A DNA stretch of 64,000 bases from Eledone cirrhosa. Taxonomy: Eukaryota. Numbering within the stretch: the first letter of the stretch is position 1; each line of letters begins with the position of its first letter. The notes beneath the pieces are model-generated. The model saw only the letters and a list, made by a program, of their open reading frames with translations, searched no databases and was not told where the DNA came from. The stretch covers positions 81,592,001-81,656,000 of the forward strand of contig OZ024741.1 of NCBI GenBank assembly GCA_964016885.1, given 5' to 3'. Positions 16,778 to 17,072 of the stretch are shown here, one piece after another. Made by a program: the position numbers and the translations under genes.

Positions 16778-17072
16778 TATAAAGAAAAAGGGATGAAATC
16801 GAAAATGCAACTGAAGTCTTATTTTTTTTAAACATATATATATTTTTATTTGGTTCCTTTACCGGTTTCGCAGTTCTTCTGCTTTTCAAAAGGTGAGTTG
16901 AGATGGAGGGTCTGTGGTTTTTCTCACATGTGAGAAAAACCACAGACCCTCCATCTCAACTCACCTTTTGAAAAGCAGAAGAACTGCGAAACCGGTAAAG
17001 GAACCAAATAAAAATATATATATTTAAAAAAAAAATAAGACTTCAGTTGCATTTTCGATTTCATCCCTTTTT

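What the first reader, a model, noticed from the sequence alone, without database searches (positions are those of the whole stretch)
16856..17001. Recurring hammerhead family with compensatory U3-A8 core and ACCGGT stem III
Seen: UUGANAA replaces CUGANGA at 2733-2778, 16856-16893, 16964-17001, 18005-18042, 18687-18723 and 36883-36924. All end in GAAA-ccgg-UA (GCAA in one). Stems I and II differ between families but mostly still pair (gcag/ctgc, gcat/atgc, gatg/catc). Established: positions 3 and 8 form a tertiary Watson-Crick pair in the active fold. Inference: covariation in both core and stems indicates selection for activity, and standard CUGANGA searches would miss the family.
Basis: partly seen in the sequence, partly recalled or inferred. 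Interest (0 to 1): 0.75.

Follow-up and report, generated by a model that had tools for sequence, protein, structure and literature searches.

The report
Known variant hammerhead in Penelope retrotransposons
This is a predicted self-cutting RNA motif of an already published variant type, carried at the end of Penelope-type jumping genes in about 28,000 places in this genome; the copy here is a short back-to-back scrap that likely cannot cut itself, so it is ordinary.

Summary
The six motifs are real. The pattern has 20,518 genome matches against 20 for the control. They are minimal type I hammerheads (U3-A8 core, palindromic ACCGGU stem III) in the pseudo-LTRs of several RT + GIY-YIG Penelope-like retrotransposon families of Neptune/Nematis type. 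16690-17079 is one two-armed, 5'-truncated insertion in (TA)n; its arms form a 151-bp hairpin that likely buries the ribozyme. U3-A8 minimal hammerheads in Penelope pLTRs, opposite-strand pairs and dimer-dependent weak cleavage were published in 2014, and this scan has noted the type on other DNA. True 3-8 covariation appears only in a sister family with an extra purine after position 3 (C-G 45, U-A 26, U-G 20, C-A 2 of 99), about one switch. New detail: 44 of 94 arms start ~42 nt before the core, 30 nt after a TATA box, so uncut RNA is likely the main template. Cleavage itself is untested.

The parts
16690..16932 (-). Left arm: 5'-truncated pLTR copy of the main Penelope-like family with the ~60-nt tail (about 16777-16716; the boundary merges into TA repeats)
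   Evidence: 97% identical to pLTR+tail of full-length copy L115; tail sequence also precedes ORF1 in tandem copies
16856..16893 (-). Minimal hammerhead, U3-A8, stem I CCUU/AAGG, stem II GCAG/CUGC, ACCGGU palindrome; predicted cut after 16860
16925..17079 (+). Right arm: 5'-truncated pLTR copy without tail, ending at the +79 site in (TA)n
   Evidence: 95% identical to L115 pLTR; 151-nt inverted repeat with left arm
16964..17001 (+). Same hammerhead on the right arm; predicted cut after 16997
17076..17177 (.). (TA)n target repeat at the right end; a second lies at 16690-16716 at the left end
17929..18324 (-). Longer 5'-truncated copy of the main family with hammerhead at 18042-18005
   Evidence: 95% identical to L115 over 398 nt
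18080..18110 (-). TATAAAA (18110-18104) 30 nt upstream of the 5'-end hotspot (18080, CC|AGATG): predicted pLTR core promoter and start site
   Evidence: sequence; 44 of 94 arms start at -75..-69 from the cut; TATA at -72 from U3; promoter function inferred
2726..2798 (+). Scrap of an older subfamily; stem I about 7 bp, stem II broken
   Evidence: 81% to L115; subfamily listed; fold
18651..18869 (+). 5'-truncated pLTR of a second family with U3-A8 and fixed A13C (GCAA); motif at 18687-18723
   Evidence: 99% identical to full-length copy L353; 8,004 genome matches
36863..37083 (+). pLTR piece of a third family, stem II GAUG/CAUC; motif at 36883-36924
   Evidence: 81% to L287, where the motif lies 579 nt after a GIY-YIG-region match

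Best explanation
The motif sits in the pseudo-LTR of RT + GIY-YIG Penelope-like retrotransposons and is a minimal type I hammerhead predicted to cut after GUA only weakly, when two sense copies pair through their ACCGGU palindromes; the stretch at 16690-17079 is a two-armed truncated insertion whose own hairpin likely keeps it from cutting. Shown: host element, position 0.4-1.4 kb after the endonuclease end and about 150 nt before ORF1 in tandem copies, two fixed 3' ends (+79 and tail end about +140 from the cut), (TA)n targets, one tailed arm per two-armed insertion, and a 5'-end hotspot about 42 nt before the core. Inferred: RNA starts at that hotspot from a TATA/initiator promoter in the pLTR; the element's enzyme nicks both strands of (TA)n, primes at the two internal sites and copies back to the RNA's 5' end across the uncut hammerhead; the two cDNAs join head to head. 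Inferred further: cleavage is a minor or late event, likely protein-assisted, that would remove the capped ~70-nt leader or release unit-length RNA from a tandem copy.
For: 25 of the 30 best RT copies fetched carry the motif downstream on the same strand. Each family's motif follows its own RT/EN, 39-56% identical in protein to the main family. Pfam RVT_1 and GIY-YIG on ORF2; DKG, GLKF and CX4CX2C linker visible. 3' ends at +79 (50) or running to the tail end (73) of 131 arms. Exactly one tailed arm in 15 of 15 two-armed insertions read by eye (four nested loci set aside). Dimer fold -21.1 kcal/mol against -5.8 per monomer. Hairpin -242 kcal/mol. Covariation in stem I and at 3-8. Same layout and weak dimer cleavage in PMC4209133; internal initiation, tail, both-strand extension, uncleaved template and protein-assisted cleavage in PMC11167929.
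Against: No cleavage or expression data. The A13C family with a 3-bp A-U stem I reached about 8,000 copies, and older subfamilies with weak stem II are among 1,025 matches. Monomer folds are no better than shuffles. The 3-8 covariation amounts to about one switch on a weakly supported tree (25 of 26 U-A copies in one unstarred clade, 91/93). 0 of 94 arms not selected for truncation start at the cut. The 5' hotspot was seen in only two related families and could be a reverse-transcriptase stop. The element has two overlapping ORFs, not the canonical single ORF.
Confidence: 0.82

Rival explanations
1. The motif is a hammerhead by descent but no longer cuts in these families; it is kept as a structure or protein-binding site in the 5' leader of the element's RNA.
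For: A13C fixed in an ~8,000-copy young family; weak or broken stems in amplified subfamilies; most short copies span the uncut site; hammerhead mutants did not affect insertion in vitro in PMC11167929.
Against: All other core positions and the GUA site stay fixed across families with unrelated flanks; C-A is avoided at 3-8 (2 of 99); about 3-fold more copies start at the cut window than at one control window.
Confidence: 0.12
2. The short copies are a non-autonomous retrozyme that cycles through self-cleaved circular RNA.
For: Short non-coding hammerhead-bearing copies are very numerous; animal retrozymes derive from pLTRs (10.64898/2026.07.22.740005).
Against: The arms are 95-99% identical to pLTRs of coding elements, are inverted rather than head-to-tail arrays, and begin upstream of the ribozyme with no permutation at the cut site.
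Confidence: 0.04
3. The palindromic locus has a host function (hairpin RNA, small RNA source or bidirectional self-cleaving element).
For: A 151-bp near-perfect hairpin would form on either strand; the copy at 17929-18324 keeps the predicted promoter and points towards it.
Against: Many two-armed insertions have the same architecture; copies decay neutrally.
Confidence: 0.02

Closest known systems
Minimal hammerheads (min-HHR) of metazoan Penelope-like elements, including the U3-A8 variant of Schistosoma mansoni Cercyon elements (Cervera and de la Pena 2014, PMC4209133; parts 1-2 of 4 of the text read)
   Same: Type I topology, U3-A8 core (about 1,300 hits reported there), short stem I, palindromic stem III, pLTR location, mostly single truncated copies, opposite-strand pairs 100-700 bp apart, predicted dimer dependence.
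   Different: About 28,000 copies here; a 6-nt ACCGGU palindrome; stem II only 4-5 bp with no extra nucleotide after A9 in the main family; one family with fixed A13C; a sister family with a purine inserted after position 3.
Natural hammerhead core variants (Perreault et al. 2011, PMC3088659; section 8 and passages read)
   Same: C3-G8 to U3-A8 covariation in nature, stated to be active in vitro; U10.1-U11.1 mismatch tolerated; insertions near C3 in saltern ribozymes.
   Different: Their insertions are numbered 2a/2b, A6a and U13a; an insertion between 3 and 4 and A13C are not in the parts I read.
Poseidon element of Anolis carolinensis (Frangieh et al. 2024, PMC11167929; parts 1-2 of 4 read)
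   Same: Two internal initiation sites defining the tail, AT-rich targets, both strands extended, uncleaved RNA as main template.
   Different: C3-G8 core overlapping the ORF start; single ORF; priming site said not to be homologous to the target, whereas both 3' ends here finish in TATA against (TA)n.
Neptune and Nematis clades of EN+ Penelope-like elements (Craig et al. 2021, PMC8557442; passages and section 11 read)
   Same: C-terminal GIY-YIG, CX2-5CxxC linker, tandem and inverted pLTRs, tail, microsatellite targets.
   Different: Two overlapping ORFs with an in-phase U-UUU-UUA site; the paper's figure legend mentions an optional frameshifted ORF1, but I could not see for which clade.

Membership tests
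Minimal type I hammerheads of PLE pLTRs | Core NUGANNA...GAAA...UH with a Watson-Crick 3-8 pair | tested here: met
   5 of 6 window copies have the full core with U3-A8; the sixth has A13C
Minimal type I hammerheads of PLE pLTRs | Stems I and II able to pair | tested here: met
   Main family 4+4 bp; stem II broken in 1 of 6 window copies; first stem I pair kept in 232 of 237 copies and 9 of 9 family representatives
Minimal type I hammerheads of PLE pLTRs | Palindromic minimal stem III that forms only in a dimer | tested here: met
   ACCGGU does not close in the monomer fold; the dimer forms 6 intermolecular pairs
Minimal type I hammerheads of PLE pLTRs | Located in the pLTR on the coding strand of a PLE | tested here: met
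   25 of 30 RT copies; also in the upstream pLTR of tandem copies L115, L117, L119
Minimal type I hammerheads of PLE pLTRs | Extra nucleotide between A9 and G10.1 (typical in the 2014 consensus, not in every family) | tested here: inconclusive
   Absent in the main, GCAA and GAUG families; a U or A stands there in sister families
Minimal type I hammerheads of PLE pLTRs | Self-cleavage in dimeric constructs | not testable with these tools
   No biochemical data
EN+ PLE, Neptune/Nematis type | PLE-type RT with C-terminal GIY-YIG endonuclease | tested here: met
   RVT_1 E 1.3e-06 (28.7 bits, just under the 29.6 cut-off) and GIY-YIG E 2.1e-06; DKG and GLKF motifs
EN+ PLE, Neptune/Nematis type | CX2-5CxxC linker before the endonuclease | tested here: met
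   CX4CX2C in the main family and in the GCAA family
EN+ PLE, Neptune/Nematis type | Tandem or inverted pLTRs, optional tail, (TA)n targets | tested here: met
EN+ PLE, Neptune/Nematis type | Single ORF (canonical description) | tested here: not met
   ORF1 of 409 codons overlaps ORF2 of 775 codons at an in-phase slippery site; I file the host as a two-ORF variant of this type, not as a canonical member
EN+ PLE, Neptune/Nematis type | Placement with reference Neptune or Nematis proteins in a tree | not tested
   No reference sequences on hand; the tree holds only this genome's copies
Non-LTR retrozymes | Non-coding head-to-tail units, one hammerhead per unit | tested here: not met
   Arms are inverted, truncated pieces of coding elements

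The most novel reading that the evidence does not exclude
The genomic copies map a TATA/initiator promoter 42 nt upstream of the hammerhead and show that the ribozyme acts as a rarely firing switch that removes the capped leader of the element's RNA, with about 1% of copies made from the cut RNA; and two core types not in the papers I could read, U3-A8 with A13C (~8,000 copies) and a purine inserted after position 3 with C-G/U-G/U-A covariation (115 matches), are active natural hammerheads.
Probability: 0.15. Interest if true: 0.55.

Novelty: new member of a known kind. Interest (0 to 1): 0.27.

Why it matters
As stated, the finding repeats a variant published in 2011 and 2014. What it adds is a convenient natural series for the open question of what Penelope hammerheads are for: a young family with intact ORFs and a clean U3-A8 motif, a sister family that spread with A13C, and a third that switched between C-G and U-A while carrying an inserted base. 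If A13C is dead, cleavage is dispensable for spreading; if it is active, the accepted core consensus is too narrow. The fixed 5' ends also give a testable start site.

Tried and rejected
Rfam scan: only microRNA-like hits from repeats and hairpins in the 150 rows shown. RNA evidence: no RNA holder listed. Laying DNA-type contigs did not resolve 5' ends at the cut site. PDB sequence search with ORF2: no match; ORF1 has no convincing Pfam match. Canonical C3-G8 with ACCGGU and no insertion: no family among the first 100 of 746 non-U3 matches. Cut-site trace: hand count of the first 100 rows gave 37 truncated, 53 point mutants and 10 deletions or duplications at the cut window (551 matches) against 17, 78 and 5 at a control window 14 nt upstream (449 matches); odds ratio 3.1, p 0.0007 (run with 54 rather than 53). 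I keep this as weak: there is one control, TA microhomology lies at the cut, and among unselected arms 0 of 94 start at -2..0 while 9 start at +3..+24. The stimulatory hairpin after the slippery site is not conserved in the GCAA family. Lunse et al. (PMC5785218) is not held, so I know it only from its title and a review passage; it may already describe A13C or inserted-base variants. Searches that found nothing on these variants. No supplements were read; those of PMC4209133 and PMC3088659 may bear on novelty. The script stopped after 12 of 16 loci.

Full report
Observation. All six motifs are present as described. Six hits stand against none in 100 simulated windows, and the pattern has 20,518 matches in the 3.0-Gb genome against 20 for the reversed control. 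They are not six independent cases. The copies at 16856, 16964 and 18005 are one sequence; 16778-16928 and 16929-17079 are the arms of one inverted repeat, 98% complementary with no spacer, between (TA)n runs. The 2740 copy has a broken stem II. Rfam showed no hammerhead among the 150 of 310 rows listed.

Host element. Long copies carry a Penelope-type RT with a C-terminal GIY-YIG domain, with DKG, GLKF and a CX4CX2C linker. Craig et al. give this linker for the Neptune and Nematis clades (PMC8557442, passages). The motif lies on the same strand about 1,050 nt after the ORF in 25 of the 30 best RT copies fetched, and in the upstream pLTR of tandem copies, about 150 nt before ORF1 (which covered 12 of 16 loci). 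The other window motifs belong to separate families, each following its own RT/EN at 0.4-1.4 kb and 39-56% identical in protein to the main family. The window pieces match full-length or EN-bearing copies at 95-97% (main), 99% (GCAA) and 81% (GAUG and the 2726 scrap).

Anatomy of the insertion. Of 131 main-family arms in the loci held (arms selected for truncation left out), 50 end 79 nt after the predicted cut and 73 run to the end of the tail. In 15 two-armed insertions read by eye, exactly one arm has the tail; the other ends at +79 in 13 and earlier in 2 (L017/18, L029, L032 and L037 set aside as nested). This matches the two internal initiation sites and both-strand extension shown in vitro for an anole element (PMC11167929, parts 1-2). 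The 5' ends are also clustered: 44 of the 94 arms that end inside the reference start at -75 to -69 from the cut, and 26 of 60 among arms on which no locus was centred. TATAAAA begins 30 nt upstream of that point (window 18110 and 18080). The related GCAA family has CATAAAA and CAGAT at matching places, with 27 of 47 starts at -49 to -34 from U3. Small samples of the other families show no such cluster, apart from 5 of 10 GAUG copies at -69 to -64. I infer a transcription start, with short copies made by run-off to the RNA's 5' end across an uncut ribozyme. An RT stop is the alternative. The promoter of Drosophila Penelope is internal and TATA-less (PMC2377424, passages), so this arrangement would differ.

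Is it a ribozyme? For: across seven families the flanks are no more alike than shuffles (0.50 and 0.52 against 0.52) while core and palindrome are kept. The first pair of stem I is U-A, A-U or G-C and paired in 9 of 9 representatives (permutation p 0.0008, families not independent) and in 232 of 237 copies, 223 of them U-A. The dimer fold scores -21.1 kcal/mol against -5.8 per monomer. A sister family with the same stem III has a purine inserted after position 3 (115 matches, control 0); of 99 distinct copies, 45 are C-G, 26 U-A, 20 U-G, 2 C-A and 6 other. On a tree with those positions masked, 25 of 26 U-A copies fall in one clade with support 91/93, unstarred, so this is about one switch. 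The protein tree places this family among U3-A8 families in a starred clade, with a long outgroup branch. Against: monomer folds are no better than shuffles. The GCAA family has A13C in 97 of the first 100 of 8,004 matches and a stem I of three A-U pairs; that A13 changes impair cleavage is recalled, and my search for A13C found nothing. Subfamilies with weak stem II are among 1,025 matches. Single mutants of the main family in the first 95 Mb of C1 number 7 at position 3, 4 at position 8 and 7 at neutral position 7 (hand count), so copies decay neutrally.

Trace of cleavage. Following a lead from note e1-8659544, I compared copies starting at the cut with a control window. The hand count gave 37 truncated to 53 point mutants (10 others) against 17 to 78 (5 others) in the first 100 rows of 551 and 449 matches; odds ratio 3.1, p 0.0007 (a script check of the first 30 rows of each agreed within one row). 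That would be about 200 copies, or 1%. It is weak evidence: one control, TA microhomology at the cut, and among unselected arms none of 94 starts at -2 to 0 while 9 start at +3 to +24.

This locus. Any transcript through 16778-17079 has one sense and one antisense copy and folds into a 151-bp hairpin (-242 kcal/mol, z -40), which would exclude the hammerhead fold. A leftward transcript from the predicted promoter at 18080 would hold two sense motifs, but with the antisense arm between them. The locus is likely inert as a ribozyme.

What is known. Cervera and de la Pena (PMC4209133, parts 1-2 of 4) report minimal hammerheads in pLTRs, about 1,300 U3-A8 hits in Schistosoma mansoni, opposite-strand pairs 100-700 bp apart, palindromic stem III, and low cleavage only in dimers or trimers or with an extended helix III. 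Perreault et al. (PMC3088659, section 8 and passages) report natural U3-A8 covariation. A review (PMC6765202, passages) summarises dimer cleavage; Lunse et al. could not be read. Li et al. (10.64898/2026.07.22.740005, abstract and first part of results) link retrozymes to pLTRs. Other papers were seen only as search listings. I did not find A13C or an insertion between positions 3 and 4 in the parts read or in searches; no supplements were read. Notes of this scan record the same motif type in other genomes and other families of this genome, and the frameshift site; no look-alike of this stretch was on file.

Verdict. A real and abundant new member of a known kind. The U3-A8 hammerhead reading is right, but it is published, the covariation rests on few events, cleavage is untested and this copy is likely silent. 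Interest 0.27.

Noticed in passing
L115:2353-5816 (+); L353 and L356: ORF1 (409 codons) overlaps the RT-EN ORF (775 codons) with an in-phase U-UUU-UUA heptamer, kept in the main and GCAA families; likely -1 ribosomal frameshift. The downstream hairpin is not shared. Already noted elsewhere in this scan.
   Followed up: partly
L187-L283: Sister family with a purine inserted between core positions 3 and 4 and C-G/U-G/U-A at 3-8; 115 matches.
   Followed up: yes
window 14903-14854 (-) and 3746-3703 (-): Two canonical CUGAUGA minimal hammerheads with AUAUAUAU or AUACGUAU palindromes. The wider pattern has 108,105 genome matches against 4,558 control; hosts L361-L365 have a CxCX5C linker as described for the Hydra clade.
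   Followed up: partly
L343, L348, L346: Other families among the first 100 rows: U3-A8 with ACGUACGU or ACAAUUGU palindromes, and a recurring C3-A8 mismatch family.
   Followed up: no
window 1-1612 (-): RT-EN fragment of another ACCGGU-type family (96% to L034 over 983 nt); its pLTR would lie left of the window.
   Followed up: partly
window 12762-13511 (+) and 23519-23926 (+): Further Penelope-type endonuclease fragments; the first has a CxCX5C linker, the second a GIY-YIG match.
   Followed up: no
window 19344-19716 and 37284-37628: Other long inverted repeats next to (TA)n (157-nt arms, 100% complementary, at the first); likely two-armed insertions of other families.
   Followed up: no
window 39152-41977 (+), 57679-60156 (-), 50245-51138 (-): A 941-codon non-LTR RT ORF, a second broken non-LTR element, and a mariner-like transposase fragment.
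   Followed up: no
window 37256-37326 (-): tRNA-like match, 48.4 bits, above the Rfam cut-off, at the edge of an inverted repeat; possibly a SINE.
   Followed up: no
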